From the NCBI RefSeq assembly GCF_004010195.1, contig NC_057753.1, forward strand, positions 9,634,622 through 9,698,621: a stretch of 64,000 nt of DNA, in the 5' to 3' direction. Source of the stretch: Chiloscyllium plagiosum (Eukaryota). The notes under the pieces are model-generated. The model had not been told where the DNA came from. It searched no databases and was given only the letters and a program-made list of their open reading frames with translations. Of this stretch, positions 9,845 to 44,950 are shown in pieces (the stretch's first letter is position 1; each line of letters begins with the position of its first letter). Position numbers and translations under genes: made by a program.

Positions 9845-10606
9845 CTACTCGGTGTGACTGGATTGGTGTCTGAACAGATGGGATGACTGACTGAATGCCT
9901 TCCCACAGACAGAGCAGCTGAATGGTCTCTCCTTGGTGTGGACAGGCTGGTGTCTCCGCAGGGAAGACCAATCAATGAATCCCTTCCCACACACTGAGCA
10001 GGTGAACGGTCTCTCCCCGGTGTGGACCCGCTGGTGACTCTGCAGGTTGGAGGACTGAATGAATGCTTTCCCACACACGGAGCAGGTGAACGGTCTCTCC
10101 CCAGTGTGGACCCGCTGGTGGCTCTGCAGGTTGGAGGATTGAACAAACGCCTTCCCGCAGATGGAGCAGGTGAACGGCCTCTCCCCAGTGTGGACCCGCT
10201 GGTGTCTCTGCAGGTTGGAGGACTGAACAAACCCCCTCCCGCAGACAGAGCATGTGAACGGCTTCTCCATGGTGTGGACCCGCTGGTGGGTCACCAGGGT
10301 GGATGAATGAGTAAACCTCTTCCCGCACATGGAGCAGGTAAATGGCCTCTCCCCGGTGTGGACCCGCTCGTGGATCACCAGGGCAGATGAATGGGTGAAC
10401 CCCTTCTCACACACAGAGCAGGTGAACGGCTTCTCCCCGGTATGGACCTGCTGGTGGGTCACCAGGGCGGATGTATGGGTGAACCCCTTCCCACACACGG
10501 AGCACGTGAACGGTCTCTCCCCAGTGTGACAGCGACGATGGCTTTCAAGCAAGGACGGGAATTTGAATTCCTTCCCGCAGTCCCCACATTTCCACGGTTT
10601 CTCCAT
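9845..10606 (-). CDS. C2H2 tandem zinc-finger protein, 9 fingers, no effector domain seen
   Basis: Open frame with nine CX2C...HX3H units joined by TGE(R/K)PF-type linkers. The first ATG ([12 protein letters not shown]) is at 10606; the ORF track extends to a non-ATG start at 10660. Confidence 0.9.
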
Positions 10607-11144
10607 TACGTGGGAATCCCTGCCGCTCCCCAGCTTCGACAATCCGTTGAAAATCCACACACATGGAACATGTTCTGTCTCTCGCTGCTGTGAATGGGGT
10701 GTTGCTACTTCAGGCTGCGTAGCCAGTTAAAGGTCTTCCCACAGTCAGTTCACTGGGGACACTCTCATTGAGGTCTGCGTTCTTCAGTCTCACTGAGGTT
10801 TGAAACCTTTCAAACAGACAGGACAGAAGAGAAATAAAAAATCCTGTGAGATTCAAAGGCTGATGATATTCCCATGCCAATGAAATTGTTGTCTATATCA
10901 TATCTTATTTTGAGATTTCTGGCTGCAATTCCTTCCTTTCTCATATTGTGAAAAAAGAGATTACATGAGCCATCACTGTCTACACAGAATAGAAATTCCA
11001 AACAGACAATTCTGGTTCCTGTGGAATATTCTTTCTTCTCTCCTTTCCCCTCAAAATGTCAATCTCAATGCCACAATCTCCCTCCAGTCTCACTCTGCTG
11101 GAGGTGAGGGTAGACTTAACAAAATCTATTGGGCAATCTTTTTT

Positions 11145-11370
11145 ACAAAGAGGGTGGTTCACATACAAAATGAACTTCCTGAGGAAGAAGTGGATGTGGA
11201 GACAATTTCAACGTTTAAAAGACATTTGGATGGGGAAGTGATTAAGAAAGGATTGTTGGGATATTGGCCAGGAGCAGGCAGGTGGGGACGAGTTAGTTTA
11301 GGATCAAATTCAGCATGGACTGGTTGGATTAAAGTGTCTGTCTTCATGCTATATAACTATGACTCTACAA
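11145..11370 (+). mobile_element. CR1 LINE 3' end
   Basis: FFTKRVVHIQNELPEEEV...TFKRHLD motif plus 3' UTR. Confidence 0.75.
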
Positions 11371-11639
11371 GTGTACAGCCAAGTAGCTAGTGATAATATG
11401 CCATCCTGGAAAATGCTAACCGTCTCCTGGCGAAGCCCATCCCCAAATTAACAACAAATTAGCCAAACAAATAAATTTACCAAGTTAAGGAAGCAAAGCC
11501 TGTCAATGTTCTCAACAGAGACCAAGTTAACCTTCCCAGAGTCTGCCCCCTCCCTGGTTTCATTTCCTTTCAGTTCATGAAACTGAGAAGTTTAACCCCA
11601 GAATGGAAAAGGAAATCAAAAAGGGGCCGAGAAAAGAGA

Positions 11640-12085
11640 GTGCCGTACTCACAGATGCTGAACAGAAGAAAGAAGTTGCAGTCTGAGATGAAGATCAATC
11701 TTCATTCGGAGTGAAGCAGCAGCAACTTCAGAAGCTCATGGTCCAACTTCCGCATTCAGACATGGGGGGGCCTCTGATTGACGGGAGGACCAGACTACTT
11801 CCGGTACTCAAGGGATTCTAATTGGCTCACGATGGTCTGGTCTGACACAATGGCGATTGGCCAATAGTAGACAAGGGGTTTGGAACGTGGGTTCGTCATC
11901 GGCCGGATCTGCAGAAAGTCCCTGCCCCTTGTGTTGGACGTCACAATGCGGAAGAAGGCCCGTCAGTTTCAGACTGAAAACCCCTCCCTCTGGGCATTAT
12001 TTCTCCCTTGCCATGGGGAGGGGTGGGAGTGTACAGGGAATGTGCACTTGTGGCAACTGGAGGCGGAGAGTGTGAGTCTAAGGGA
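11640..12085 (-). promoter_or_regulatory. ZNF promoter and exon 1 module, copy 2 (probable promoter of the 9-finger gene)
   Basis: Donor actcac at 11647-11652, ETS acttccggt at ~11797, several ATTGG/CCAAT boxes and a CRE-like ggacgtca at ~11937. Locally CpG-rich. Confidence 0.72.
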
Positions 12086-12329
12086 AGGTGTTTCAGATTC
12101 TCTCTCTCTGTGAAGGCTTTATGATCCTCATGGCATTTCGAAGGACTAGAACGTGAGATGGTACAGAGATCTGTCTAGTGTAATTAAATGGTTAAACATT
12201 CAACGTGGTATTTGTGGTTCTGTAAGATGCGATTGTAATTATTTGTTGTAAAATTATGTTGTAGCTATGTCATATACTTCCAATTATGCTGTTATTGAAG
12301 GGGCTGGTAAGTGGGCATTGGACAGAGTT

Positions 12330-12505
12330 TCATAGAGATGTCCCTCGGTCTAACTTGTTCATGCTGATCAGTTTTCTGGATAGATTGTGTCCCATTTCCC
12401 AGCACTTGACACATATCCCTCTAAATCCTTCCTAATTCTTACACCCATCCAGATGTCTTTTAAATGTAATTGTACCAGCCTCCACTGCTTCCTCTGGCAG
12501 ATCAT
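12330..12505 (-). mobile_element. CR1 LINE 3' end
   Basis: NDLPEEAVEAGTITFKRHLDG on the minus strand. Confidence 0.75.
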
Positions 12506-12509
12506 TCCG

Positions 12510-12900
12510 TGCGTATGTAGAGAGTTCAGTCATCGGTCTAACAATGGCAGGGAAGAAGCTCTTTCTGAACCTGTTGGTGCGTGATTCAAGATGCTGTATC
12601 TTCTGCCTGACCAAAGAGGTTGTAAAAGAGCATTACCAGGGTAGGAGGGCACTTTGATTTTGTTGGCAGCCTTTCCGCAACAATGAGAAGTGCAGATGGA
12701 GATTGTGCATGATAGGTTGGCTTCCGTGATGGTCTGAGCTGTGCATAAAACCTTCTGTAGTTTCTTCCGGTCCTGGGCAGAGCATTTGCCACACCAGGTT
12801 GTTACGCACCCAGATCGAACACTTTCTATGGCGCATCCGTAAAGGTTGTTATGAACATGCCTCCTGAAGGAAAGAGGTGTTGTTGAGCTTTCTTGACTGA
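12510..12900 (-). mobile_element. Rex1/Babar-clade LINE 3' fragment
   Basis: YGCAIESVRSGCVTTWCGKCSAQDRKKLQKV and TNRFRKSFFPAIVR resemble the Rex1 RT C-terminus. Confidence 0.75.
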
Positions 12901-13769
12901 GATTGCCCCCATCATTATTCCAGATGGTGAGAACACAAACAACCCCCTGTGGAGTTTTCTTTGCTGGCAGAAAGCAGTTTATGTTCAGCAGCAGCTCAGT
13001 CACTTGGGCATTAGGTGCTGTGAGACTAAAAGTACAGAGGACCATGAGGAACCAGGGTGTTTCCAACCAACATTCAAACTAATCAGTCTAAACCTTTGAA
13101 GTTTCCAAGTTCACTTAGCCAAAAGCTAATGGAGGCATCCTGATGAAATGACCAGGAATACTTGGAATCCTGAAAAGGATTCAAGTGAATCCTAGAGAGA
13201 TGTTGCATGCCTTGGAGTATTCCTAGGAAGTGAATGAAATATCAAGATTCATATAAAGATTTGTGGGAACTCCTGCAGGGCAGTAAAGAAAATTTAATTT
13301 ACATTTAAGGCCATACATGCTATTCTGCTAAGTTACTCCGATTAATTGGTCATTTTTCTTTGTTTAAAAATGTGAAATGTTAAGGAACAGTTTTTCTCGT
13401 TAATCACTGGATATTCAAATTTCTCTTCAGAATTAAAGGTCATATCAAAACTGAGTCTCATTGTGGGATTTTTAATCTGTAGTGTGTGCTTGGTAAAGTT
13501 TTAACGAACAATATTTCATAGTGAATTTTATCATGTTAAGTACTGAGACTTTCTGGAGAGGAAAGATTTGCCCTTGTGTGTTTTGCAACACTTAATCAAG
13601 GTCTGTTCAATAGAATAAGCAGAGAGGTTGACGCTAGACTTGAGAGCTGCAGGCAGGAGCACAGCAATTAGGGTTAGAAGGTTAGCCAAAAATATAAAAC
13701 CGGTTGGAAACTTGCGTCAGCTTTTTAAAAATACATTAACAAAATAAGTGTTGGCTTTGTGGAAAATGA

Positions 13770-14262
13770 GCATTCAGTAACAGAGGATAAAGAGGTAGCA
13801 GATGTATTGAAAAGAGCTTGAATCTGTCTTCACTGGAGAGGATACAAGTAACATCCTAGAACTAGCTGTAAATCAGGAATTGAAAGGGAAGGAGGAACTG
13901 AAGAAAATGACAATTACCAGGGAAGTAGTACTGAGTAAACTATCGGAACTGCGAGTTGCCAAGTCCCAGATTTTATCCTAGACGCTTAAAGAAAAACTAG
14001 CTAGTGAAACAGTTAATGCATTGGTTTTAATTTTCCAAACCCCATTAGATTCAGGGAAGGTATCTTTAGATTGGTAGACACCTTTCTTCAAAAAGGGAGA
14101 TGCAGAACAGGAAACTGCAGACCTTTTTACTTAACATATGTCAGGGGGAAAATGTTACAAACTATTATTAAAGATGTTATGGCAGGGCACTTGTATAAGT
14201 TCAAAGTAATCAGGCAGCGTGAATGTGTTTTAGTCAATTGGAAATAATGTGTAATTTTTTTG
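13770..14262 (+). mobile_element. CR1 ORF2 internal fragment
   Basis: Degenerate pre-RT region (SVFTGED, KSP, LVLIFQ, PFFKKG). Confidence 0.65.
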
Positions 14263-14470
14263 AAGGACGGCCTCTCCCCAACTGCGACTGAGCTGGTGAA
14301 TCTCCAGTGCCGACAGGGAATGGAATCTCTTCCCTCAGTCCCCACATTCCCACAGCTTCTCCACAGTTCTGGTGTTCCTTTGGCTCTCTGTTTTTGATGA
14401 ACAATTGAAACTGTGACCACACTCAGGAAACGTGTACAGTCACTCCCTGCTGTGAACAGTGTAATGTTTC
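14263..14470 (-). pseudogene. Truncated ZNF pseudogene
   Basis: VEKLWECGD*GKRFHSLSALEIHQ: the start is lost, there is an in-frame stop, and it is cut off by a LINE after one finger. Confidence 0.8.
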
Positions 14471-14473
14471 TTC

Positions 14474-15990
14474 AGTCTGTGTAACTGGTAAAAGCTCCTT
14501 CCCATAGTAAGCTCACTGGGACTCTCTCTATTTAACTTTCTCTCTCAGTCTCAAAGAATGTGCAACTGGTTAAAACACATCCTACACTCAGCTCACTGGG
14601 ACACATTGTCTCAGTCTGTGCAATGGGTTAAATCTCTTCCCATAGTCAGCTCAGTGGACCACACACTCTCTCTGTTTGTGTAACTGGTGAAAGCTCTTCC
14701 ACAGTGAGCTAACATGGAACAAAGTTTCTCGCTCAGACTGTGTAACTGGGTAAAGCTCTTCTAACAGTCAGTTCACTGTGTAATGTTAAAAGATTAAATG
14801 GGAACATCCTTCTGGATATGAATGTAATATTAAAAGGTTAAACTAACTGAGTGAACATTCTGGAAGTGGGTGGGGATGACAGTTATGCAGGAATGCGAAT
14901 GCCTCCCACTCCATTTAGACAGTCATTTGCTACTACTCCCCTACTATTTTCAAATTAAACTATCATTCACTCTCGTCCAAAGATACTTCCATAGCCATCC
15001 TCTGAAGCTAGGTATATCACACCTACAATGTCTTGAGGAAATCACTTGCATTATCTGCGAGAATGATCTCACCCTTCCACTGGACTAACTTGTGACTGTG
15101 AGTGACTGGGTGGTCTTAGTGGTGTGGAGGCATGGCCAGAGTATCTGTGAGCATGACCAGCTGACCTATATAAAGGGGATGTGCTTTCTTTGTTCAGGGC
15201 CTCACTTTGACTCGATTTCACATGCTGGCATGGCGGGGTCACCCAGCTTGTACAGGTGTTAATAAACTTTAACTGTTTGGAGAAGTTAGTGTGTGCAAAT
15301 TGCATCTCGTGTGTGAAACCTCGGGAAAAGAGCCCAACACTGGAACACACTCTCTCTGTCTGTGTAACTGGTTAAAGCTCATCCCACAGTCAGCTCACTG
15401 GGACACACTGTCTCTCAAGTCTGTGTAACTGGTGAAAGCTCTTCCACAGTGAGCTCACTAGGACAAACTCTCTTTTACTCAGACTGTGTAACTGGTTAAA
15501 ACTCTTCCCACAGTCAACTTCCTGGGATACAGTCTCTCTCTCTCTCTCTCTCTCTGTCGATGTGACTGGTTAAAGCTCATCCCACAGTCAGCTCTCGGGG
15601 ATAGAGGCTCTCTCTGCCTGTGTAACTGGGTAAAGCACTTCCCACAGTCAGCTCTCTCTCAGTCTAACTAACTGGTTAAAGCTCTTCCCACAGTTAACTC
15701 ACTAAGACACCCTGTCTCTCAGTCTAAGTGCGTAAAGCTTTTCCCCATAATCAGTTCACTGGGACACTCACTTTCCCAGACTGGGTAACCAGTTAAAACA
15801 CTTCCCGCAGTCAACTCATGATGAAACACTCTCTCTGTGTAACCGTGTAAAGCTCTTCTCACGATCAGCTCACTGGGACACTCGCTCTCACTCAATCTGT
15901 GTAACTGATTAAAGCTCTTCCCACAGTCAGCTCACTGGAACAGTCTCTCCCTCAGTCTGTGTAATTGGTTAAAGTTCAGTTCACTGGTGT
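14474..15990. repeat. Minisatellite of ~16 units (~55-60 bp) derived from a half zinc finger
   Basis: Unit tctgtgtaactggttaaagctcttcccacagtcagctcactgggacac(tc)n. The minus strand reads Q*ADCGKSFNQLH. Five units lie left and about eleven right of an LTR insertion. Confidence 0.88.
14779..15339 (+). mobile_element. Solo LTR inserted in the minisatellite
   Basis: TG(taatg)...(ccaa)CA ends, TATA at ~15167, AATAAA at 15261. It splits a repeat unit with a short (a)ctg duplication. Confidence 0.8.
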
Positions 15991-16389
15991 GTTCCTGTCT
16001 GAGTGCTTTTCTGGTCACATTGATGCCCAGTATCTTTTGAAGCAGGTAGAATGGATTTGTCCTTCCAGATTCAAACATCCAATGATATTGATTGGTCTTG
16101 TTATGGCATTTCTTCCAAAATTTATGTCTGCAGATCCTCCCCTTCTCATACCTTGTAAACAAAGTTGAAACAAGTCATCATTGTCTGTACTGAATAGAAA
16201 TTCTATTACATTATATTTGTCTTTTGTTTATAGTATTAAACCAGTAATGTACAACCTGTATTATTTACTTAAAACACACAGGAGATGTGATGAAGGTTGT
16301 GTCAGGACCTGAAACTCTCTGAACCCTAACAGGGTGTTGCAAATTGAAGTGAAAGATTTGAAAATGAAGTGGATGATCATTGAGTTATA

Positions 16390-16825
16390 CACCATAGAAA
16401 CAGACCCTTCAGTCCAACTTGTCTGTGCTGACCAGATATCCTAAATTAATCTTGTCACATTTTCCAGCATTTGGCCCGTATCTCTCCAAACTCTTCCTAT
16501 TCATGTAGCCATTCCAGACGCCTTTTAAATGTTGTAATTGTAGCAGCCTCCACCAATTCCCCTCGCAGCTTATTCCACACATGCACCACTCTCTGCGTGA
16601 AAAAGTTATTCCTGAGGTCCCTTTTAAATCTTTGCCCCTTCTCACCCTAAACCTATGCCCTCCAGTTTTGGACACCCACACCCCAGGGACACCTTGTCTA
16701 TTTACCCTGTTCGTGCCCTTCATGATTTGATCAACCCATCAGCCTCCGATGCTCCAGGGAAATAGCCTCAGTCTATTCATCCTCTTCCTATAGCTCAAAC
16801 CCTCCAACCCCGATAGCATCCTTAA
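16390..16825 (-). mobile_element. CR1 LINE 3' end
   Basis: SKTGGHRFRVR motif and 3' UTR. Confidence 0.8.
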
Positions 16826-16954
16826 AACAGAGAGACACGGACCTACCTATCCAGAGTTTGTCCCCTCCCTGGATTCACTTACGTTCCTGCAAATCCACAG
16901 TTTAATTCCAGAACGTGAGAAGAAATGGAAAGGGAGAAAGTAAAGAAAAGAGAG

Positions 16955-17340
16955 TATAGTGCACACAGATATTGAACAGAAGAAGGAAGTTGCAGTCTGA
17001 AGTGAAGCTCAATCTTCCTTCAGAGAGAGGAGCAAGTTTCAGAAGCTCATCGTCTAACTTCCGCATTCAGACAAGAGGCGGACTGTGATTGGCAGAAGGG
17101 CCAGGCTGCTTCCAGTCCTCCAAGGCTTCCGATTGGTCAATCCGCATCAGTCGATCCGGGGACTCTCGCCCTCAATTGTTGACGTCACAACGCGGAAGCA
17201 GCCCAATTCTCATTTCAAGGTGAAACTCTCTCTCTGGGCAACGTCTGGGAGCAAAGCAATGTCTCCCCTTTCCATTCCTCAACCTGGAAGGAAGAGAGAG
17301 GAGGGGAAACATTGTTCACTTATAGTAAGTGGAGGTCGGG
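16955..17340. promoter_or_regulatory. ZNF promoter module, copy 3, apparently bidirectional
   Basis: Minus-strand exon 1 homolog, gattgg boxes, perfect CRE tgacgtca at 17180-17187, gcggaag, and a plus-strand donor gtaagt at ~17325. Confidence 0.62.
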
Positions 17341-17859
17341 GTTGTGAATCCTGGGAGCAAGCGGACTCTGCCAAGGTTAGTTTCAGCTTCTGGCTCTATT
17401 GTTAAAAATGTTGAGATTCAGTGTGACCGAAAAGAACTGAAAATCACGATAGGACAAAAAAATGCTTCCTGCCATTTATTTCGTGGAAGACTGGATGTAT
17501 TTTCCAGTAACAGAGTCTGTAGGACACAGCAGGATTCTAAAAAGATGGATTCTTTCCCCACATACACACTTGAAGTGGGATCTTTCCCAGAAGAAGACTG
17601 CTATTTAAGAGAACCGTTTGTTAACACAAGACAGGGATTAGTGTAGGTTATGTGCTGCATACTGTATTTGGTGTTGTATTTATGGTTCCAGAAGCTTTAT
17701 TTGTAATTACTTCTGACTTTGTAATATCCTACAGTAGATACATTTTATATAATCTTCAGTAAGAGAGTTAATACTGCACAAAAGATGACTTTAAGCATTG
17801 GCCCCATTAGCCTTGGGGATTGAGAGGAACAAATGATCCACAGAAACTCTAATTGTGTG

Positions 17860-18125
17860 TTCTGAATTTATATCGTGGACTGGCAGTGACAACATCTTCA
17901 AACCTCTTTTGCAGGATAACAGAAAAGAAGAATTTGGAAGCAGAAATCTCAAACTAAACTTCACGTCAGTGTCTGGTAGTTAGTTGATTCACCCAAGATG
18001 TCAATATCGACGGCTTTGAAAACAAGGAGGGGAAACGAGGTCTGTCTCCTTCGCTCGTTTTGAAATCTGTGTGATTGGAAAAATCACCAAATGTCTCTCA
18101 CTGAGTGAGAGTATCCCAGTGGGCA
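17860..18125 (+). pseudogene. 5' remnant of a divergently oriented ZNF exon (no fingers left)
   Basis: Reverse-complement similarity to 10750-11000. Acceptor ttttgcag at ~17914. Ends at gagagtatcccagtg, where the first degenerate finger would begin. Confidence 0.5.
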
Positions 18126-18521
18126 GTCGTTCTCTCCCTCCCCCTCTCCGGGACAGCCGGGGGGATGAGTCTTAAAATAGTGTGTGCGTGTGCACAGACA
18201 CACTACTTTTTACCTGTACAGGACAATGTTAGAGAGATTATCTGGAGAAGGGAAGTTTAGGGTATATCCCTGTATAGAACTCTGGGGGAAGTGTGGGGAG
18301 AGAGGGCAGGTGGTCGGTCATTTGGAGACTGTGCCTGGGCTCCTTTTGATGTCCAGGACTGTTCTCGACAGCATTTCAGTAAGCCGAGTGCACTTTTAAT
18401 CAATGTTAAAACATCTCTATGTTTCTATCGGGACCGTGATCTTCTTTTGGATAATCCGAAATTCAGCTTATTGATATTCAGATAGTCGAGGTTCCTCTGT
18501 ACTCTACCCAACTTCACAACA

Positions 18522-19083: not shown

Positions 19084-19687
19084 CGTTAAGGACCAGGCCA
19101 GACCCCCTCAAAACATTTGAAGAATGTAGGCCAAACCCTAACTTTAAAAATTTTTTTTAAACATTTGTGAAGTGGCTATTCCAGGACTGGTGCAGCTGGT
19201 CAAACCACTTAGACAAAACAATTTATTTACACACTGCAGATGAAACACAAACAAAAGAAAACCAAATTGAGAATATCTTGTATGAAAACTCAACTGACTA
19301 TTGCAACTTAATAAAGCTGTTCCAATTCTGCAATATCCTGTGAACGCACCCCATGGCGAAAGGTAAATTTGAACACAGGTTCTTACAGGCAGGAGAGATT
19401 TCAGAGAGTGGAGTCAGGCAAGAAAACCTCTATTAAAGCAAGTTTCATTGTAGCTGCTTCTCTAGGACCCCTGCTAAAACTAAACCAAACTGGGAAAACA
19501 AAACTGAGCTGGGAGAACGATCTGCTCCCCTTTCATTGTTCAACTGTGTTTTTAAAAAAAAACCCTAAAGGCTTCCTCTATTGACTCAGGCAGTGTCTGT
19601 TAACCATTTTGACACCACTGCTTTTAAAACCCCTCTTGAAAATAACCAGGGACAATATAACCTTGTTAAAGGGGCAGGATCGTCCCG
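19084..19687. mobile_element. Solo LTR
   Basis: Flanked by the 4-bp direct repeat atac (19080-19083, 19688-19691). Ends read cg...cg, read as decayed TG...CA. A related end occurs inverted at ~18870-18949. Confidence 0.5.
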
Positions 19688-20711
19688 ATACCATGTGGTT
19701 TGGGTTCTTGTGGAGGCAGATGTCTTGACATTTATTAACAACACTCATTATGTACACCGTTACATGACCTCAGGCTGAGACACTACCATACATCAGGAGC
19801 ATCTCGGAACTGACAGCCAGACTACTGCGACTCCTAGGACTCATAACGGCACACAAACCAACAGCCACGCTCAGAAAAACAACTCACCAGAACGAAGGAC
19901 CCGATACCCAACATGAGCAAAACGAATGTAGTGTACAAAATCCCATGCAAGGACTGCACAAAACGCTATATAGGACAAACAGGAAGACAGCTAACAATCC
20001 GCATACATGAACATCAACTAGCCACGAAACGACGCGACCAGCTATCCTTAGTAGCCACACACGCAGACAACAAGCAACATGAATTCGACTGGGACAACAC
20101 TACTATCATAGGGCAAGCCAGACAGAGAACAGCCAGGGAATTCCTACAGGCATGGCATTCATCCACAAACTCCATCAACAAACACATCGACCTCGACCCA
20201 ATATACCAACCACTACAGCGGACAGCTGAAACTGACAACCGGAAACGGCAGGGACAGACCACTATAAACACCGGAGGAAACACCAAAGAAGCGCTTCGCA
20301 GGAGGCTCCCAAGCACTGATGATGTCGCCTAGCCAAGGGACGAAACAAGAAAACCTCTATTAAAGCAAGTTTCATTGTAGCTGCTTCTCTAGGACCCCTG
20401 CTAAAACTAAACCAAACTGGGAAAACAAAACTGAGCTGGGAGAACGATCTGCTCCCCTTTCATTGTTCAACTGTGTTTTTAAAAAAAAACCCTAAAGGCT
20501 TCCTCTGTTGACTCAGGCAGTGTCTGTTAACCATTTTGACACCACTGCTTTTAAAACCCCTCTTGAAAATAACCAGGGACAATATAACCTTGTTAAAGGG
20601 GCAGGATCGTCCCGATACCATGTGGTCTGGGTTCTTGTGGAGGCAGATGTCTTGACATTTATTAACAACACTCATTATGTACACCGTTACATGATCTCAG
20701 GCTGGGACACT
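19419..20711 (+). repeat. 366-bp direct repeats (19419-19784 and 20346-20711) flanking the Penelope fragment
   Basis: Copies are identical apart from about four substitutions seen by eye. Confidence 0.93.
19785..20345 (+). mobile_element. Penelope-like family 3 fragment with GIY-YIG endonuclease domain
   Basis: ORF 19913-20332 (NVVYKIPCKDCTKRYIGQTGRQLTIRIHEH) followed by the hammerhead core ctgatga...gaaac (20316-20346), truncated there. Confidence 0.9.
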
Positions 20712-23845: not shown

Positions 23846-24627
23846 ACTACCTGGAGCCTGTAACTGACCAGCTGACACGTGGACACTTTTCTTACACTGC
23901 TTTTATTCAAGCCTGCAGAGCCATTTCCACAAGACTGCAACAAACTCCCCAAATACTAAAATACATCAGTTTGATATACTGTTGTTATTTTAAGAGCAGT
24001 TTACATGTACCAATCAATAGGATACAGTTGTTTTATGGTTATCAATATTCAGTTAGTGGTTCTGGTTATTTCATCTGCCTTATCTTATCGTACTCAACCA
24101 ACTACAGCATCTAGACACTTGCCAAATTACAATATCCAATGTTTGCAGAGTATTTTTCTTTTTGTCATGACTGTTACCTTGAACACTGATTTGTGACCTC
24201 CTCGTTGCTCTCAAAGTTCCTCATTCGTCCCTACATTGTGAAGGTTTTACTTTGTCGAATGTTTTCCTGGCTTTTTTGCAGTTAGCACCCTACCTTCTGC
24301 CCTGGTCAACATTTTCCCTTCCAGGTCTGTACTGAGGATTTCATGAGAAACCTCAGAATGTGGTGAGACTGTGGAACTCACTACCATCGCAACAGGTTGG
24401 GGTGAAAGGCATTACAAGCAAGGGTAAGCCAGCCAGTACAAAGGAGTGTCACTGTCACCAGATTCACAACACAGTGAAATTAAAACATGCAAAAATCCCT
24501 CAGAATTTCTCAACTGTTCCGAACCAGGCTTGATGAAGAACAGATCTCGCACACCAAAACTATAATTTAAACAAAAAACAAACAATTATAAATGCTGCAA
24601 CTTTGCTAGGGCAATGTTAACCAAGAA

Positions 24628-24900
24628 TAGCTGAAGGTCTTCCCGCACTCGGGGCAGGAGAACCGCCTCTCCCCAGTGTGACTGTGCCGATGAGTGTCGA
24701 GGTGAAACGGGAAATTGAAGCCTTTCCCGCAGTCGCCACACTTCCACGGTTTCTCCACAGGGTGGGATTCCTTGGGTATCTCCGTGACCGAAGCTTCATC
24801 CACACACAAAAGCACGTACCGCCCCTCCCCGCCATGAATTCCTCTTCCCAGGCCGTGTAACTGTTTCAGGCTCCATACTCAGAGCAATGCAACAGTAGGG
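24628..24900 (-). pseudogene. Truncated ZNF pseudogene (1.5 fingers)
   Basis: [43 protein letters not shown], then a deletion junction into 3' flank sequence. Confidence 0.85.
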
Positions 24901-24914
24901 TCTCTCATCTAATC

Positions 24915-25045
24915 GGAGGAAAACGTGAGGACTGCAGATGCTGGAGATCAGAGCTGAAAATGTGTTGCTGGAAAAGCGCAGCAGGTCAGGCAGCATCTAA
25001 GGATGAGAATCGACATTTCGGGCATGAGCCCTTCTTCAGGAATCC
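24915..25045 (-). mobile_element. Penelope-like family 1 terminal fragment
   Basis: Minus strand reads ctgaagaagggctcatgcccgaaatgtc plus the family 3' end. Confidence 0.78.
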
Positions 25046-25839
25046 CACTGATTCAGGAATCATCTAATCCCACTGATGCTGAAAATGTACTGAAACAGGA
25101 ACGAAAAAGCTTTGTTCCTTCTCACAGAATCATAGTCGAAAATTGTTGCAGTCCCGATGGATTGACTGACGGTCATTCATTGACATGAAAGTGAGGACTG
25201 CAAATGCTGAAGAGTCAGAGTTGAAAAGTGCGATGCTGGAAAAGCACAGCAGGTCAGGCAGCATCTGAGGAGCAGTAGAGTTGATGTTTCGGGCATAAGC
25301 CCTGCATCTGTTGATTTTGAAACTTCTATCTTCAGATCTTCAAATACTCTAAAAAGAGATTACAAAAGTCATCATTGTCAGTCCAGGGTAGAAATTCAGA
25401 ACAAGCACTTCTACTTTCTGCAGAACATGCTTTTCTTTTTCCACAAAACTGAAAGCACTATCCCACTCTCTCTCTCTCTCCTCCAGTTCTCACTCCACTC
25501 AAACTAAACCATTTGACGGTGCTGATTTAGGATCGCACAGGGACAGAAAAGTAAAAACATCAAGACTGATATCTCTTTAGAGTTTTGGATACCTCCACCT
25601 GAAAGTTATTATCCTTCACAATGTTGGGATACTGCTGACAGTGAGCAAGTCTGATTTGGGAAGCAAAAAAAATGTCAATTCACAAATGAATCTACAACGC
25701 AGCTTCTGGAGAAACAACGAGACACAAAATGGTTAACATTCGGGAAGGTGGTGAGGAGGGAAAGAGACATCAAGGCATTGACACCAACACCAGAGAAAAA
25801 CTGAACATACTGATGTAGTAAATATTAGTGGCAAGCCGG

Positions 25840-26919: not shown

Positions 26920-27175
26920 CGCACATCCACCCACGCCCAAGCTGTATTCCATACCAGGCTCCGCCCCCACGCTGCATTCTCCCCCAGGCCCCGCCCACAC
27001 ACTGCCGTCTCGCCCACGTGGGGACTCCATCCAGCAGCGGGCCTCTCAAGTTCAATGTGAGTTCCGGGGCGGTACACGGGCTATCGCGACCGCCCCTGTA
27101 CTCACCCGCAACCTCTGTCTCCGACAACAAAACTCGGACCGACCTCGCCTTCATTCCAGCTTCTGACTCAAAGTA
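26920..27175 (-). promoter_or_regulatory. CpG-rich segment with a candidate first exon
   Basis: GC boxes (ccgccc), E-box cacgtg and a minus-strand donor gtgagt (actcac ~27100-27105), upstream of the 24.7-kb ZNF pseudogene. Confidence 0.45.
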
Positions 27176-33179: not shown

Positions 33180-33325
33180 CACCGACTGTCCCACTGCACC
33201 CACTGTCAGAACGGGCGGGAGTTTCAGTCCTGAGGGTGACCCACAACAGCATCACCAGTGGAATCCGATTGTTGGGAGCACTGGTGCCCCCGCAAGTTGC
33301 AGGTCAACAAAAACCTTCACCTGCA

Positions 33326-33797
33326 CTAGGGGCTGGCAAATGGCCTCTCAACAGTGTGGATCCGCCAGTGCCTCAGGAGATGGGAAGAATTGCTGAAGGC
33401 CTTCCTGCACTCGGGGCAGGGGAAGGGCCTCTCCCCAGTGTGGACCCGCCGATGCCTCAGGAGATGGGAAGAATTGCTGAAGTCCTTCCTGCATTCGGGG
33501 CAGGGGAAGGACTTCTCCCCAGTGTGGACCCGCCGATGCCTCAGCAGGGTGGAGGAATGGCTGAAGGCCTTCCCGCCCTCGGGGCAGGGGATGGGTCTCT
33601 CCCCCGTGTGGACCCACCGGTGGGTCAGTATGGTGGAGGAATCACTGAAGGTGTTCCTGCACTCGAGGCAGGTGAACGGTCTCTCCCTGGTGTGACTGCG
33701 CCGATGAGTCTCCAGGACAGATGGGACACAAGCCTTTCCTGCAGTCACCACACTTCCACGGTTTCTCCACGTGGCAGAATTCCTCGGGTTTCTCCAT
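33326..33797 (-). pseudogene. Frameshifted ZNF gene (~5 fingers)
   Basis: [22 protein letters not shown], then a frame change at ~33730 into ETHRRSHTRERPF.... One finger has Cys replaced by Gly, and a stop at 33326 falls in the sixth finger. Confidence 0.85.
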
Positions 33798-34699
33798 GGC
33801 CGAAGTTTCAGCCGCACACAAATGTGTGTGCAGCCGCTGCCGTGAATTCCTCTTTCCAGGCCGTATAACTGTTAAAGGCTCCACACTCAGGGCGCTGCAA
33901 AGATAAGGTGTCATCTAGTCCCACTGATGCTGAAAACGTACTAGAACAGGGACCAAAAAGCTTGGCTCCTTCTCACAGAATCATAGTCGAAAATTATTGC
34001 GGTCACAATGGATTGATTGACTGTTAGACATTGAAGTGAAAGTGAGGACTGCAGCTGCTGGAGAGTCAGAGTCGAAAGGTGTGGCGCTAGAAAAGCACCA
34101 CGGATCAGGCAACATCCGAGGAGCAGGAGAGTCAACGTTTTGGGCATTAGCCCTTCATTTGTTGATTTTTAAATTTTCGTCTTCAGATCTCCAAATACTC
34201 TGTACAAAGTGATTACAAAAGTCATCACTGTCAGTCCATGGTAGAAATTATATTTTCTGCAGAACTTTTTATTTGCCGTTGCACAAAAGAAAGCACCATC
34301 CCACTTTCTCTTTTCCTCTGTTCTCACAGATCCTGACTGTGATACTTCAGGATCTTACAGGAATAGGAAAGCCAAACGTCAAGACTGACATCTCTTTGAA
34401 TTTTGGATAATTCCACCTGAAAGTTAATATCTTTCACGACATTGGCGATACTGCTGAGAGTGAGCATGTCTGATTTTGTGAAGCAAAAACAAAGTGTGTT
34501 AATTCAGGATGAACCTACAATGCAGCTTCTTGAGAAATAACCAGACATGAAATGGTTAATGTCGGGGGGTGGGGAGGCTTTTTGATCGTTCAGATGCTCT
34601 GTCTTTCATCACCATCCATGGCTGATCATTCATCTAAATTATCTTTCCTGCACATTTTTTTCATGACTTCACCTGATGAAAGGGCTTGTGATTTCAAAC

Positions 34700-35770: not shown

Positions 35771-35839
35771 AAATTTATAATTTCAGTTAAATCAGACGGA
35801 AACCTTTTGCTATAAATTCCGTGTCCTATGATCCACAAT

Positions 35840-36200
35840 CTACCACGGTATCCCTCGAGCCCATTGTAGTAAATCGGGTCCTCTCCTGTTGAATGAATGA
35901 ATGAATGAATGGGAGCGGAAAGGGGCGGAGACTCTGACGTTTGTGCGAACCTCTCCGCCAATCCCAAAGTTCGGTGCGGAGGAATCGGTGAACGACAATC
36001 TGGGGAGTGTGTCAATGCCGGCCGCCATTGGTCAGGTGGAGTAAGGTGCGCTCTGATTGGAGGGAGCGTGGATGACGCGCGTCACTGAAGGAGGAGACGG
36101 AAAGAAGAAGAAAAACAAAGATGGCGGCGCGAGGCTGCGGTTTTCTCATCGACTCAGCGGGCGGTTTCTGACGGAGGGAGGGGGGCAGACAGGCATCGTT
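35840..36200. promoter_or_regulatory. CpG-island promoter, probably bidirectional
   Basis: CpG-rich, with GC box ggggcgg, CCAAT/ATTGG boxes, tgacgc and the YY1 motif aagatggcggc at 36118-36128. Confidence 0.72.
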
Positions 36201-37189
36201 TACCTCAGAAAATACCTTTAAATACATTTCAAATTAAAGCCGGAACTTTTCAAACAAAAGTTGTGAAGTAAAGGAGAGAGTCCCCGTTGGGGTTAATTGT
36301 TTATTTTTGTATAATTCCCGGGGCCCGGGAAGGGGGAGGTGACGGTTATTTACATTAAAACCGGAGGGTCATGTCAGAGTGTTTGTTTATATTGAGCAGG
36401 TGTAGGTAAAATACACTCCCTGGAGGGGCACCTTCTGTGATGCTGCATTTCTTGCCTTCTGCCCTTCCCCCATTTGTTATCTCCCATCCTGATTTTACAT
36501 TCTTTTTGGTCAAATTTAATTTCATATTAATCAGCCTTGGTATTCACTGTGTGTTATTAACTAATCTGTTGGATTATTGTAAGACAAAATTAATGGTGTA
36601 TTTTCATTTCTGATGTCTGAGTTTGACATTGAATGTGCTGGTGTGAATACCAGTCAGTTTTGAAAATAAATCAAGAACTTGTGCTTTTTAACAAAAAGAG
36701 TTTACTGATATTGATGGCATTGCCTCCTTTTGAGGAGGATGATTCCAGTCTGACCAACAAACCATTTCATGCAGTCACCCACTTTAATTAAAGTTTTTTA
36801 AAAAATAATTCTGGCAGGCTAAGATTTATACAACCCAAAATATGGTTGGTAATCATGTGTATTCTTACTGTAACAGAAGGCATTGTGTGGCAGTTTGAGA
36901 CTGAAACTTTGTTGGAAAGAATGTAGATTGATGAGGAAAGTCAAAATGGCAGAGTCTGAGGCCACATTCTATCAGCCTGGCTTGATTGCATGAGTCGTCG
37001 TTCTTCAAAAGCGCCTTCCAAGCCATGACCTCAATCACCAAGAACAGACACATGTGAGCACAGCATTCCGACTGCAAAATATATTGCATTGTTTCTTTGT
37101 TATTGACCAAAATGCTGGAACTCACTTCTGAACATTGTTGCAGACCACATTTTATTTGTGAAGCATTTTAAGAGGCAGCTCAGCACCAC

Positions 37190-40470: not shown

Positions 40471-40607
40471 GCCCATCCAATCAATTCTAATTTATATTGA
40501 ACTTTCTTTCCTCTCTCCATTCCCTAAAAGCTGAAAATCTCCACCTCACACATTCTCACTTTGTTGAACCTAATCCCTGCTGTACCACATCCTGAAGGGT
40601 CTGGTTC

Positions 40608-42760
40608 ATGCTGATTAACAGGCCCACACTCCGGAGGGATCAAATTGAAACATACAGAATACTGAACGGCCTGGACAGATAGGATGTTAAGAAGATGTTT
40701 CCATTGAATGGATAGACTCGAACTTGAAGGCTTAGCCTTAGAGTAAAGCCTTAGACCTTCTGGAATGGAAATAAGGAGAAACGTCTTCAGCCCGAGAGTG
40801 GAAAATCTGTGGAATTCACTGCTTCAGAAGGTTGTGGAGGCCGGTTCACTGAGTATACTTAAGACTGAGATAGATAGGTTCTTGAGTATCAAGGGGATCA
40901 ATGGTTACGGAAATAAACCAGGAGAATGGGGTTGAGAAACTTATCAGCCATGATTGAATGGAGGAGACCTGATGGGCTGAAGGCCGAATTTCTGCTACTA
41001 CGTCTTATGGGTCTCTTGCTTTACTGGACACTGAGAGAATTGGGAGCAGGAGTAGGCTATTTGATCTTTCGAGCCTGCACCAACATTGAACAGATCATAA
41101 CTGGATATGAATATGCCTCCATCTAGGTGGAGAGGCTGGGACATATTTCACTGGAGCATAGGAGTTTGAGAGGAGATCTTACAGAGCTTTATAAAATCCT
41201 GAGGGGTATAGATGAGATGAATGGCAGGTCCTTCCCCTTGGGTGGGGGTTTCAAGATTAGGGAGCAAATTTTGAAGGTAAGAGGAAAAATATTTTTAAAA
41301 GACATGAGGTGCTCCTTTGTTTTGAAACACAGAGTGGTTTGTGTGTGGAACCAATGTCAAGAGGAAGTGGTGGATGCAGGTACAGTTACAAAATTTCAAA
41401 GACATTTGGATAACTACATGAATAGGAAAGGTTCAGAGGCATATGAACCAAACACAGGCTGGTGGGACTAGTTTGGTTTCAGAACATAGTCAGCATGGAC
41501 TAATTGGACTGAAGGGTCTGTTTCTGTGCTGTATGACTCTGTAACTGTTCTATACTGGTTTTAAAACCATTTTCTTGCCTTTCTCCATAACCATCCACTT
41601 CTTTCTTGTTCAAAAATCAGATGAACTCAGCATTGAATATATTTAATGACCCCCAAACTGGAAGAGATCCCTACTTCTGAACTCAATTCCTCTTGCTATA
41701 ACATTCCACTTGCCTTGCTCATTGCTGCATCTGTCTGACAACTGGCATTGACTGGTGTAGGACACTGAGGACCCTTTGTACATCCACACATCATTCCTGA
41801 CGAAGGGCTCGTGCCCGAAATGTCACTCTCCTGCTCCTCAGATGCTGCCTGACCTGCTGTGTTTTTCCAGCGCCACACTTTTTGACTCTGATCTCTAGCA
41901 TCTGCAGTCCTCACTTTCTCCACATCCCAATATATTCCCATTTAAACCATGCGCTTTCTTTCTGCCTTTATTTTCCACAGCAAGGACTATAATTTCACAT
42001 TGTGGTACTGCATTTTCCATGTGTTTGCCAATTGAAGCACAGTCCTGGACCAAATTTTCCAGAGTCTGTCCCCTCCCTGGATTCACTCCGTTTCCCTTCC
42101 GTTACTGGCATTGACTGGTGGAGAAGGACACTGAGGACCCTTTGTACATCCGCACAGCATTCCTGACGAAGGGCTCGTGCCCGAAACGTCACTCTCCTGC
42201 TCCTCAGAACCCCAGAATGAAAAAAAGAGGGTAAGAAAAGAGTGCCGTACTCATAGATGTAGGACAAAGGAAAGCAGTTTCAGTCTGGGGTGAAACTCAA
42301 TCTTCATTCTGAGAAAGGAACCGCAGCAACTTCATAAACTAATGATCAAATTTCCACATTTCAGACAATGGTGGGGAGTCTCTGATTGTCAGGAGGACCA
42401 AGCTCCTTCCGGTTCTCCAGGGCTCCCCATTGGTCCAATCAAAGTTGCATGCAGTTTCCTTGAATACCAAGGGGATACGCAGATTTTTGCTGACACCAGT
42501 GAACATGCGCAATTCTTGTGGACACTGAGGAACATGCGCAATATACTCTCTGTGGTTGACGGTGTTGACGATAGATGACCTCAGGAGAAAAAAGGCTCGA
42601 GCGACATTTTTTTTCCTTTTGCATTTTGTCTGGATACTCAACTTTTGTTGATCTTTTTCCCGTGTAGAGAACTCCCACACTGGAGGGGATAGGTTTCGGG
42701 TGAGAGGGGAAAGATTTAAAAGGGTCCTAACGATTTAGAAAAAGAATGTGAAAGTTAATT
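40608..42760 (+). repeat. Segmental duplication paralogous to 3682-5760
   Basis: Same order of flank, two LINE ends, Penelope fragment, intron sequence and promoter module. Confidence 0.88.
42240..42550 (-). promoter_or_regulatory. ZNF promoter and exon 1 module, copy 4 (donor mutated)
   Basis: actcat at 42249-42254, so the GT donor has become AT. cttccggt, ccattgg/ccaat and two catgcgca motifs. Confidence 0.65.
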
Positions 42761-42929
42761 CCCCTCAAAAATTGCCCTCTTTTATGGCCTGAACAAAATA
42801 TATTGTTCACAGACTATTAATCACTGAGTAGGAAGGATGTTGTGAAACTTGAAAGGCTTCAGAAACGATTTGTAAGGATGTTGCTTGGGTTGGAAGGTTT
42901 GAGCTTCAAGAAGAGGCTGACCATAATTC

Positions 42930-44011
42930 AGTTACATTTAGTTTAGCGATGGAAAGGGAGAGGTACATGTCACAGGGCAAGAGTTATAGATGGGGAAGGG
43001 CAATTATAATGCCACTAGGCAAGACTTAGGCATGGAATGGAATAGCAAAATGTAGGGGACGGGGACAATCAAACTGTGGAGCTGCTTTAAGGAACAAATA
43101 TTGCGTGTCTTTGATAGGTATGTCCCTATAGAGTGGTGGACAGTGTGGAAGAATGTTGCAGGTTGCAGGAGGACTTGGATAAACTGCAGAATTGGGCTGA
43201 GAGGTGGTAAATGGACTTCAATGCAGATAAATGTGAGGTGATTCACTTTGGGAAGAATCAAACAGGAAGGCAGAATACCAGATCAATGGAAAGATTCTTG
43301 GTACTGTGGATGTGCAGAGGGAACTTTGTGTCCACATTCATAGATTCCTGAAAGTTACCACCCAGGTTGATAGTGCTGTTAAGAAGGCATACGGTGTGTG
43401 AGGTTTTATTGATACAGCGATTGAGTTCCGGAGCCGTGATGTCATGCTGCAACTATACAAAATGCTAGTGTGGCCTCACTTGGAATACTGTGTATAGTTC
43501 TGGTCACTCCATTACAGGAAAGACGTGGAAGCATTGGAAAAGGTGCAGAGGAGATATACCAGATTTTGTCTGGTCTGGAGAGAGGTCTTATGAGAAAAGG
43601 CTGAGAGACTTGGGTCTGTTCTCATTGGAGAGAAGGCGGCTAAGAGGGGATTTAATAGAGACATACAACATGATCAGAGGATTAGATAGGGTGCACAGTG
43701 AGTGTCTTTTTCCTAGGATGATGATGTTGGCTTGTACGAGGAGGCGTACCTGTAAATTCAGGGATGATAGATTTAAGACAAATGCCAGAGGAAGATTCTT
43801 TACGCAGAGTAATAAGGGCGTGGAATGCCCTGCCTGCCAATTGTAGTTAACTCAGCCACATTAGTGCCATTTAAACATTCTTTGGATAAGCACATGGATG
43901 ATGATAGGATAGTGTAGGGGGATGGGCTTAGATTAGTTCATAGGTCGGCGCAACATCATCGAGGGCCGAAGGGCCTTTTCTGCGCTGTATTGTTCTATGT
44001 TCTATATTCTA
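42930..44011 (+). mobile_element. CR1 LINE with complete 3' tail
   Basis: RT C-terminus (LGLFSLERRRLRGDLIETY) and (ttctatg)n tail ending at 44011. Confidence 0.88.
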
Positions 44012-44950
44012 CTCCCCCTGCGATGGCACGTGAACTCGCTGGTGCCTCTGCAGGTGGGAGGAGCGGGTGAATCCCTTCCCACACTGAGAGCAGGTGAACA
44101 GCCTCTCTCTGGTGTGAACCAGCTGGTGGGTCCGCAGGCCGGAAGAATCAATGAATCCCTTCCCGCACATGGAGCAGGTGAATGGCCTCTCCCCAGTGTG
44201 AACACGCTGGTGGGTCAGCAGGATGGAAGACTTGATGAATCCCTTCCCGCACTGAGAACAGGTGAACGGCCTCTCCCCTGTGTGGACCCGCTGGTGGGTC
44301 AACAGGGTGGAAGAATTGATGAATCCCTTCCCACACTGTGAGCAGGTGAATGGCCTCTCCCCGGTGTGGACCCGCTGGTGGGTCAGGAGTGCAGCTGACT
44401 GAGCGAACCCCTTCCCACACACTGAGCAGGTGAACAGCTTCTCTCCTGTGTGGAGGCGCTGGTGCGTCTGCAGGTTTCCCATCTGACTGAATCCCTGCCC
44501 ACACACTGAGCAGGTGAATGGCTTCTCCCCAGTGTGGACCCGCTGGTGGATCAGGAGAGTAGATGATTGAGTGAATCCCTTCCCGCACACATGGCAGGTG
44601 AACAGCCTCTCCCCAGTGTGTACCCGCTGATGGATCAACAGTCCAGATGACTGAGCAAACCCCTTCCCGCACACAGGGCACATGAATGGCTTCTCTCCCG
44701 TGTGGACCCGCTGGTGCGTTTGCAGGTTGCCCATCCGACTGAATCCCTTCCCGCACATGGAGCAGGTGAATGGCCTCTCCCCAGTGTGAACACGCTGGTG
44801 TCTCACGAGGTGGGATGCTTCAGTGAATCTCTGCCCACACTGAGAGCAGGTGAACGGCCTCTCCCCGGTGTGAATGCGTCTGTGGTTTTCCAGTGCCGAT
44901 GGGGAAGGGAATCCTTTCCCACAGTCTCCACATTTCCACGGTTTTCCCAT
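44009..44950 (-). CDS. C2H2 tandem zinc-finger protein, 11 fingers, no effector domain seen
   Basis: 313-aa open frame from [12 protein letters not shown] with eleven intact fingers and TGE(R/K)PF linkers. Upstream acceptor ttttcacag ends at 45260. Confidence 0.92.

What the first reader, a model, noticed from the sequence alone, without database searches (positions are those of the whole stretch)
9845..44950. Birth-and-death cluster of effector-less ('naked') tandem zinc-finger genes
Seen: both intact ORFs, and the pseudogenes as far as they survive, begin at or just before a stereotyped (M/V)(E/G)[10 protein letters not shown] finger. The intact proteins consist only of fingers. The sequence between the upstream acceptor and the ATG has stops or frameshifts, and the recurring exon 1 shows no evident coding frame. 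Known: tetrapod ZNF clusters silence transposons through KRAB-TRIM28, and cyprinid fish ZNFs use a FiNZ domain. Inference: this TE-saturated shark-like locus could be a separate expansion. Its proteins might act by occluding DNA, or the conserved first finger might serve as a protein-interaction module. The constant first-finger prefix contrasts with variable helices in later fingers.
Basis: partly seen in the sequence, partly recalled or inferred. Interest (0 to 1): 0.72.

Follow-up and report, generated by a model that had tools for sequence, protein, structure and literature searches.

The report
Truncated shark zinc-finger gene family
This is a piece of a large shark-and-ray family of DNA-binding zinc-finger genes whose two intact members here carry no known silencing domain, apparently because the front end of an older, longer gene decayed, and one unusually constant finger near the new start may do the recruiting job instead.

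Summary
The cluster is real: two intact finger-only ORFs (9 and 11 fingers) and five broken copies in retroelement-rich shark DNA. No KRAB, SCAN or BTB was found in 288 stop-free stretches around them, nor in 19 chondrichthyan hits.

Two corrections. (1) The 'first' finger is not ancestrally first. The leader upstream is a decayed coding region (a peptide of about 36 aa plus remains of up to three fingers), also seen in horn-shark gene models, and the start Met sits in an old inter-finger linker. (2) Exon 1 does hold an open ATG frame up to its donor, in the leader's phase, but with no coding signature and no in-frame route into either intact ORF.

Expression is suggested, not shown; no splice joint was seen. 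Shark ZNF expansions (475-3,586 ORFs) are already counted in print. I found no description of this architecture. Protein docking and transposon targeting are inference.

The parts
9845..10606 (-). Gene A ORF: 253 aa, 9 C2H2 fingers, first finger = signature finger (10526-10606)
10607..10946 (-). Gene A leader: decayed N-terminal peptide and remains of upstream fingers; 6 in-frame stops; homologous acceptor lacks AG at about 10947
11520..11990 (-). Promoter/exon-1 element of gene A; ATG frame 11705-11653 open to a GT donor in phase 2
14270..16151 (-). Pseudogene P14: leader, one fossil finger amplified into a ~60-bp minisatellite (14.56-15.97 kb), two fossil fingers, broken signature finger (14284-14364), truncated
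16845..17232 (-). Exon-1 element of P14 (ATG changed to AGG at 17019)
17166..18130 (+). Divergent unit P18: second type of upstream element (17166-17382) and a leader-only exon-2 remnant from the acceptor at 17914
24620..25348 (-). Pseudogene P24: leader with repeat insertions, signature finger 24678-24758, truncated in the next finger
33275..34199 (-). Pseudogene P33 (78% like P24): own ATG at 33797 nine codons before VEKPWK, frameshift inside the signature finger, then four fingers (one with a lost Cys) and a partial one
42208..42437 (-). Exon-1 copy, ATG frame 42307-42255, donor changed to AT; partner exon not identified
44009..44950 (-). Gene B ORF: 313 aa, 11 C2H2 fingers, signature finger 44870-44950
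44951..45259 (-). Gene B leader from an intact acceptor (AG ends 45260); decayed peptide and fingers; 4 in-frame stops
48098..48296 (-). Second-type upstream element, like 17166-17382; possible alternative first exon of B (untested)
51973..52341 (-). Exon-1 element, likely first exon of gene B (inferred); ATG frame 52044-51992, intact GT donor
5091..5386 (-). Orphan exon-1 copy (ATG frame 5255-5203); no zinc-finger exon found downstream in the window
62821..64000 (+). Pseudogene P63: acceptor at 62820, broken signature finger near 63690 and broken fingers running off the window end

Best explanation
This is one cluster of an elasmobranch birth-and-death family of finger-only C2H2 proteins. Each unit is copied as a cassette: promoter and short exon 1, intron, then one large exon. 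That exon once began with a peptide of about 36 aa and up to three more fingers. In genes A and B this front part has decayed into 5' leader, and the reading frame now opens at a Met lying in the old linker before the signature finger (shown at sequence level). The later fingers read DNA, with a conserved framework and freely changing base-contact residues (pattern shown; DNA binding inferred from the fold family). The signature finger keeps one helix surface (xPSxLE) across sharks and a skate. Most likely it is a fixed docking site for a partner protein, standing in for the missing KRAB/FiNZ-type domain, so that the family can bring a cofactor to repeats such as retroelements (inferred, not shown).
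For: Finger-only intact ORFs with in-frame upstream stops. Fossil fingers upstream of A, B and P14 (nhmmer E 0.0023-4.3 for single units; tblastn with horn-shark pieces E 1.5e-8 for A, 4e-8 for B, 8e-9 for P14, alignments that include part of the signature finger; upstream-only pieces E 0.002 for A and 7e-4 for B). In horn-shark models the finger follows a half finger or whole fingers, with an ordinary TGEKP/TGKKP linker in 4 of 25 cases and Met at that linker site in 12 of 25. A/B leader: 63% identity, score 153.5 against a shuffle maximum of 101.5, but 15 gaps in 295 nt against 2 in 331 nt of coding sequence (binomial p 0.0009). Framework pN/pS 0.30-0.34, base-contact positions 0.82-0.88, signature-finger framework 0.20. 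Helix P+1 in 25 of 25, E+5 in 23 of 25, Y-1 in 19 of 25. Signature in 22 of 324 chondrichthyan fingers, 19 array-first and 3 second, against 3 of 2,900 other fingers. No KRAB/SCAN/BTB in 288 stop-free stretches or 19 chondrichthyan proteins. No pyrimidine-rich acceptor puts exon 1 in open frame with A or B.
Against: No binding, target or partner data. Transcript structure not shown: no exon-1/exon-2 joint among the 15 of 287 joints displayed, and the two contig runs are only guessed to be RNA and also cover non-exonic DNA. Position +3 of the signature helix varies almost as much as in other fingers (entropy 2.26 against 2.72 bits), as a DNA-reading finger's would. The pN/pS values come from non-independent pairs of paralogous fingers, and only 3 pairs for the signature finger; the broken P33 array also gives 0.46, so the framework signal is partly inherited. 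Base-contact ratios stay below 1, so positive selection is not shown. 18 of the 25 signature fingers come from one species (Heterodontus), mostly from chimeric gene models. Both leaders hold upstream ATGs (4-9 for A, 1-2 for B by splice model), which could lower translation. Human finger-only ZNF146 binds LINE-1 but its loss did not derepress L1 in HEK293 (PMC8896011, passages).
Confidence: 0.5

Rival explanations
1. Hidden N-terminal effector. The exon-1 ATG frame (17 codons plus 2 nt) spliced to the ~36-aa exon-2 leader makes a FiNZ-like N-terminal peptide that is still translated in other paralogs. A and B are derived members that lost it.
For: The layout (small first exon, large finger exon) matches KZNF and FZNF genes (PMC10547256 section 4). 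The exon-1 frame is open and indel-free in 5 of 5 copies, with ATG in 4. Its donor is phase 2, and the phase-2 frame after the acceptor gives the leader peptide start in P18, P24, P33 and P63. One horn-shark model (P0175, residues 882-917) has the leader open and in frame with the array. PMC2604467 names unannotated small N-terminal exons as a cause of apparent nakedness (passage).
Against: No coding signature in exon 1 (pN/pS 0.8). A phase match has a 1-in-3 chance. 0 of 19 chondrichthyan proteins contain MKI[DE]. The leader is broken in all 7 window copies. The P0175 gene with the open leader has a broken signature finger. No Pfam family matches the leader. An X4 contig runs unspliced over 10582-10742, across the in-frame stop of gene A, if that run is RNA.
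Confidence: 0.2
2. Passive binders. The proteins recruit nothing. The signature finger is a structural cap or reads a fixed triplet, and the proteins act, if at all, by occupying DNA (competition or occlusion), like human ZNF146/OZF.
For: Finger-only proteins. Variable +3 position in the signature helix. ZNF146 has only fingers, binds thousands of L1 copies, and its loss changes no gene expression in HEK293 (PMC8896011, passages).
Against: The non-contact helix positions +1 and +5 are the most constant (25 of 25 and 23 of 25), and the helix is kept in a skate protein whose hairpin has changed. This points to a conserved surface, not only a base read-out.
Confidence: 0.2
3. Mostly neutral debris. 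The cluster is a by-product of segmental duplication in repeat-rich DNA, and A and B are just young enough to be intact.
For: 5 of 7 exon-2 copies are broken, plus orphan first exons. The acceptor of gene A lacks AG and its leader is rich in upstream ATGs. Expression is not shown.
Against: Indels are concentrated upstream of the ATG in the same exon (15 in 295 nt against 2 in 331 nt). A and B are about 75% identical in DNA, so not young, yet both are open. Framework pN/pS is about 0.3. The signature helix is shared with sawshark-, catshark-, houndshark- and skate-labelled proteins.
Confidence: 0.1

Closest known systems
Tetrapod KRAB-ZNF clusters (KRAB-TRIM28)
   Same: Tandem C2H2 arrays in one exon, clustered duplicates with pseudogenes, conserved framework with variable base-contact residues, TE-rich setting.
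   Different: No KRAB (PF01352) in the window or in 19 chondrichthyan hits; 0 of 223 non-chondrichthyan proteins carry the signature motif. The whale shark paper lists the KRAB box among domains enriched in families lost in cartilaginous fishes (PMC8455134, passage).
Cyprinid FiNZ-ZNFs (Wells et al. 2023, PMC10547256)
   Same: Lineage-specific expansion with a small, conserved upstream exon and a large finger exon.
   Different: FiNZ is a conserved, translated 28-aa domain reported only in cyprinids. Here exon 1 shows no coding constraint and does not join A or B in frame. No FiNZ profile was available to test directly.
Human ZNF146/OZF (Only Zinc Fingers; PMC8896011)
   Same: A protein of 10 C2H2 fingers with no identifiable effector domain that binds LINE-1.
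   Different: A single conserved gene, not an expanding family. No fossil leader or signature finger is reported in the passages read. No silencing effect in HEK293.
Auto-annotated shark 'zinc finger protein 239/271/721/850-like' models (P0001, P0068, P0131, P0153, P0163 and others)
   Same: Same signature finger; 4 of these models start exactly at the same linker Met.
   Different: Names are by similarity to mammalian genes only. Many long models join neighbouring genes through retroelement-derived exons. A second subtype keeps one intact finger ahead of the signature finger (P0147, P0151, P0174, P0225).

Membership tests
KRAB-ZNF | KRAB domain in an upstream coding exon | tested here: not met
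   0 KRAB hits in 268 minus-strand and 20 plus-strand stop-free stretches of 42 aa or more; a broken or shorter exon would be missed. 0 of 19 chondrichthyan hits carry PF01352.
KRAB-ZNF | Tandem C2H2 array in a single exon | tested here: met
   9 and 11 uninterrupted fingers.
KRAB-ZNF | TRIM28 recruitment and H3K9me3 silencing | not testable with these tools
   No interaction or chromatin data.
SCAN- or BTB-ZNF | SCAN or BTB domain N-terminal to the array | tested here: not met
   Same scans; none in the precomputed Pfam lists of the 19 chondrichthyan hits.
FiNZ-ZNF | Conserved 28-aa acidic FiNZ domain in coding exon 1 | tested here: inconclusive
   No FiNZ sequence was fetched for direct comparison. 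The exon-1 frame is 17 codons with one acidic residue and no coding signature; FiNZ is described as cyprinid-specific.
FiNZ-ZNF | Expression at zygotic genome activation and repression of TEs | not testable with these tools
   Expression of gene A only suggested.
Elasmobranch signature-finger ZNF family (as seen in public gene models) | First or second finger with helix P+1, L+4, E+5 | tested here: met
   A and B have it; 22 of 324 chondrichthyan against 3 of 2,900 other fingers.
Elasmobranch signature-finger ZNF family (as seen in public gene models) | Homologous leader (peptide plus fossil fingers) upstream of that finger | tested here: met
   Horn-shark pieces align to the leaders of A, B, P14 and P18: finger remnants E 0.002 or better for A, B and P14; peptide part only E 0.9-2.3 singly but at the homologous site in four copies.
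Finger-only TE-binding proteins (ZNF146/OZF type) | Protein made only of C2H2 fingers | tested here: met
   For the predicted ORFs; depends on the unproven transcript structure.
Finger-only TE-binding proteins (ZNF146/OZF type) | Binding to TE sequences | not tested
   No motif prediction or ChIP was run.

The most novel reading that the evidence does not exclude
Sharks and rays run a transposon-matched zinc-finger system of hundreds to thousands of genes whose 'effector domain' is itself a zinc finger. The founder shed an N-terminal peptide and up to three fingers, gained a start codon in a linker, and the fixed xPSxLE finger became the cofactor-docking module. This would be a third solution beside KRAB and FiNZ, with the discarded domain still readable as a fossil in the 5' leaders.
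Probability: 0.25. Interest if true: 0.8.

Novelty: new variant of a known kind. Interest (0 to 1): 0.5.

Why it matters
Chondrichthyan genomes carry 475-3,586 multi-finger ORFs (PMC10547256 supplementary file 2, 8 species rows seen), as many as or more than mammals, yet KRAB-ZNFs appear absent. [quoted passage not shown] This locus turns that into two simple tests: tether or delete one 27-residue finger, and count how often the exon-1 plus leader frame is open across the genome. The shared exon 1 also offers a single knock-down target for much of the family, as was done for FiNZ genes in zebrafish.

Tried and rejected
No own genome is held, so no genome-wide census was possible. An exact DNA pattern for the signature finger found 0 matches in metagenome and viral contigs. 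No tRNA or Rfam family in the window.

The full HMMER search with a 41-column profile of broken leader pieces returned 3 hits, all repetitive unrelated proteins. The profile was poor, so this blank says nothing about intact leaders elsewhere. ESM Atlas gave generic C2H2 clusters for protein A and only scores of 0.82-0.83, chance level, for the P0175 leader. Proteins A and B are not in the exact-match collection; the Atlas holds A from its Met, possibly from this same assembly. The PDB search gave only generic fingers.

Sequencing runs: no listed holder is on record as RNA; the lay was swamped by repeats and paralogs and displayed no informative joint. Earlier scan notes held nothing on this family.

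Rejected: the idea that broken copies simply lack the start codon. P33 has its own ATG nine codons upstream and P63 keeps ATGs at the site. No complex or structure prediction was run, as there is no candidate partner.
Full report
What is in the window. Six-frame scanning finds two intact C2H2 arrays on the minus strand: gene A (9845-10606; 253 aa; 9 fingers) and gene B (44009-44950; 313 aa; 11 fingers). Both start at a Met two residues before [10 protein letters not shown] and end 2 and 6 residues after the last finger. Pfam sees zinc-finger families as the top hits (best 25 of 30 and 39 families shown). A DNA profile of the intact fingers also finds broken arrays at about 14.3 kb (P14), 24.7 kb (P24), 33.3-33.8 kb (P33) and, on the plus strand, 63.7-64.0 kb (P63). 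A leader-only remnant lies at 17.9-18.1 kb on the plus strand (P18). A promoter/exon-1 element occurs five times on the minus strand (5.2, 11.7, 17.0, 42.3, 52.0 kb). Of the window, 59% is covered by matches to elsewhere in the window, finger arrays included, with four reverse-transcriptase remnants and an env remnant. The origin is a shark: every database protein found with the same finger is from a shark.

No known effector domain. I listed stop-free stretches of 42 aa or more outside the arrays and scanned 288 of the 397 listed: 268 on the minus strand from 10.7 to 58.1 kb and 20 on the plus strand upstream of P18 and P63. The only hits were RVT_1. A broken or shorter exon would be missed. 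The 19 proteins labelled as chondrichthyan in three searches (2 of 2, 3 of 120 listed, 14 of 120 listed) have no KRAB, SCAN or BTB among their precomputed Pfam families, whereas most tetrapod rows in the same lists do.

First correction: the 'first' finger was not first. Single decayed finger units sit directly upstream of the signature finger in A, B and P14 (weak singly, E 0.0023-4.3). The leaders of A, B, P14, P18, P24, P33 and P63 are homologous to each other. Horn-shark models settle the point. The signature finger there follows a half finger (for example SSNLERHKDTRT in P0158), two recognisable fingers (P0175 N-terminus), or one intact finger with an ordinary TGEKP/TGKKP linker (P0147, P0151, P0174, P0225). 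These pieces align to the window leaders at the expected places: E 0.002 for A and 7e-4 for B with upstream-only sequence; E 4e-8 or better for A, B and P14 when part of the signature finger is included. At the linker position where other fingers have Gly (182 of 257), signature fingers have Met in 12 of 25, Gly in 4, Thr in 4, and Val, Arg or Ala in the rest. So the start codon of A and B is a linker variant. Caveat: most long horn-shark models join neighbouring genes through retroelement exons. They show what DNA lies upstream, not what is translated.

The leader is decaying while the array is not. A and B leaders are 63% identical (score 153.5; 300 shuffles: mean 59, maximum 101.5) but carry 15 alignment gaps in 295 nt, against 0 in 81 nt of signature finger and 2 in 250 nt of the next three fingers (binomial p 0.0009; gap counts depend on alignment settings). 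They hold 6 and 4 in-frame stops. The break in constraint falls at the ATG, as expected if translation starts there.

Second correction: exon 1 has a frame. All five copies have a 53-nt, gap-free, stop-free stretch ending at the donor position. Four begin with ATG and read MKI(E/D)...; the donor is GT in four. The donor is in phase 2, and the phase-2 frame after the acceptor gives the start of the leader peptide in P18, P24, P33 and P63. One horn-shark model, P0175, has this leader (residues 882-917) open and in frame with its array; it matches A, B, P14 and P18 only weakly (E 0.9-2.3) but at the homologous site each time. This suggests an ancestral N-terminal peptide of about 54 aa. Against present-day coding: pN/pS is 0.8 and variation is even over codon positions (8/7/7) in exon 1; a phase match has a 1-in-3 chance; 0 of 19 chondrichthyan proteins contain MKI[DE]; and the P0175 gene itself has a broken signature finger. 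In A and B none of 5 and 5 pyrimidine-rich acceptors gives an open fusion: the exon-1 frame closes after 19-99 codons. The only in-phase AGs inside the open stretches have purine-rich context. The homologous acceptor of A lacks AG, so its real acceptor is unknown.

The signature finger. Among 25 such fingers (3 from the window, 18 from Heterodontus), selected by hairpin and not by helix, the helix has P at +1 in 25, E at +5 in 23, Y at -1 in 19 and S at +2 in 20. Position +3 varies (E, Q, L, K; 2.26 bits against 2.72 in other fingers). The P+1/L+4/E+5 pattern is in 3 of 2,900 fingers of 223 non-chondrichthyan proteins. P+1/E+5 is in 22 of 324 chondrichthyan fingers, 19 array-first and 3 second, never deeper. 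A skate protein (P0210) has the helix PSELE with a different hairpin, so the helix is the older constant. Among A, B and P24 the framework pN/pS of this finger is 0.20 (3 pairs). For later fingers it is 0.30-0.34 at framework and 0.82-0.88 at positions -1, 2, 3, 6 (pairs not independent; broken P33 gives 0.46 and 0.95; no ratio exceeds 1). A fixed, acidic helix face on a finger kept at the array's front fits a protein-docking role. That is inference; the variable +3 keeps a DNA-reading role open.

Expression. For 9700-12100 no listed holder is on record as RNA. On 9300-18400, contigs of run X4 (RNA is a guess) tile 9997-10742 in five pieces with 0-4 other letters and no gaps at depth 3.4-6.3, one spanning 10582-10742 across the in-frame upstream stop. 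Run X1 has ORF pieces at depth 7.6 and 16.9. Both runs also hold near-identical non-exonic pieces (depth 2-4.9), so DNA or pre-mRNA is present. In the true RNA run X12 (about 2% read), 849 of 935 laid reads were only 90-95% alike, mostly repeats and paralogs. Exon-1-like paralog contigs reach depth 155 (X1) and 53 (X4). No exon-1/exon-2 joint is among the 15 of 287 joints shown. Expression is suggested, not shown.

What is known. Wells et al. (PMC10547256; I read the abstract, sections 4 and 10, term searches, and a term search of 7 supplementary files, with files 3-5 not searched) link ZNF number to retroelement number across animals. The main text has 0 hits for shark, chondrichth, catshark, cartilaginous or Scyliorhinus, but supplementary file 2 counts 475 (Callorhinchus) to 3,586 (Scyliorhinus canicula) ORFs with five or more fingers in the 8 chondrichthyan rows seen. 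Emerson and Thomas (PMC2604467, passages) note many poly-ZF predictions without N-terminal domains and list four possible causes. ZNF146/OZF is a finger-only LINE-1 binder without a silencing phenotype in HEK293 (PMC8896011, passages). KRAB loss in cartilaginous fishes is noted in PMC8455134 (passages). PMC11603059, PMC11620358 and PMC10380595 (passages) add nothing on shark ZNFs beyond PRDM9. Nine full-text searches listed no paper describing this family's leader, linker start or signature finger; the library lacks most subscription journals.

Verdict. A real, ordinary-looking birth-and-death ZNF cluster, belonging to an expansion already counted in print and auto-annotated in databases. Its architecture appears undescribed in what I could search: secondary loss of an N-terminal region, a linker-derived start, and one helix held constant across sharks and a skate. 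It resembles a KRAB- or FiNZ-type system only by analogy and fails membership of KRAB-ZNF. New variant of a known kind; interest 0.5.

Noticed in passing
window 416-2766 (+): Broken endogenous retrovirus remnant: pol-like piece at 416-790 (no Pfam hit) and env pieces with TLV_coat hits (E 1.5e-9, 2.2e-7); part of env lies in a 500-bp tandem duplication (1727-2725, 95%).
   Followed up: partly
window 14560-15975 (-): A ~60-bp minisatellite in pseudogene P14 is built from one fossil zinc finger (units read CGKSFNQLH-like): a decayed finger turned tandem repeat.
   Followed up: partly
window 11911-12105, 17166-17382 (+) and 48098-48296 (-): A second type of upstream element lies back to back with exon-1 copies at 11.9 and 17.2 kb, suggesting bidirectional promoters; it shares a downstream motif with exon-1 introns.
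   Followed up: partly
window 19419-19784 and 20346-20711: Two 366-bp direct repeats (98.9%) flank a Penelope-like piece (19847-20329, GIY-YIG only E 0.017); either a recent insertion with target duplication or an assembly artefact.
   Followed up: no
window 36131-36868 and 58312-59436: Inverted duplicate (88-94%) beside a CpG-rich promoter-like region (CpG observed/expected 1.08 at 35850-36200 against 0.36 for the window); may be a different first exon for P33.
   Followed up: no
window 27050-27150 (-): Another short ATG frame (MKARSVRVLLSETEVA) ends at a GTGAGT donor in phase 1 upstream of P24, in CpG-rich DNA; a possible third exon-1 type.
   Followed up: no
window 33770-33797 (-): P33 has a second MEKP nine codons ahead of VEKPWK, with its own ATG; P24 has ACG at the matching site. 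This subfamily seems to have gained a start independently of A and B.
   Followed up: partly
window 16022, 18067, 10796, 45136: One site in the most upstream fossil finger reads TGA in P14 and P18, AGA in A and TGG in B; a stop there may predate several duplications.
   Followed up: partly
window 9648-9999: Run X1 holds a 352-nt contig with 32 differences (91%), including the 3' untranslated part: a recent paralog of gene A outside the window or in a related organism.
   Followed up: no
window 22742-23508 and 28232-29009: An ~780-bp duplicate (82%) with no Pfam or Rfam match.
   Followed up: no
P0180, P0085 (database proteins): A separate shark ZNF type with long Pro-rich spacers and no signature finger is shared by Pristiophorus and Scyliorhinus, so not all shark ZNFs belong to this family.
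   Followed up: no
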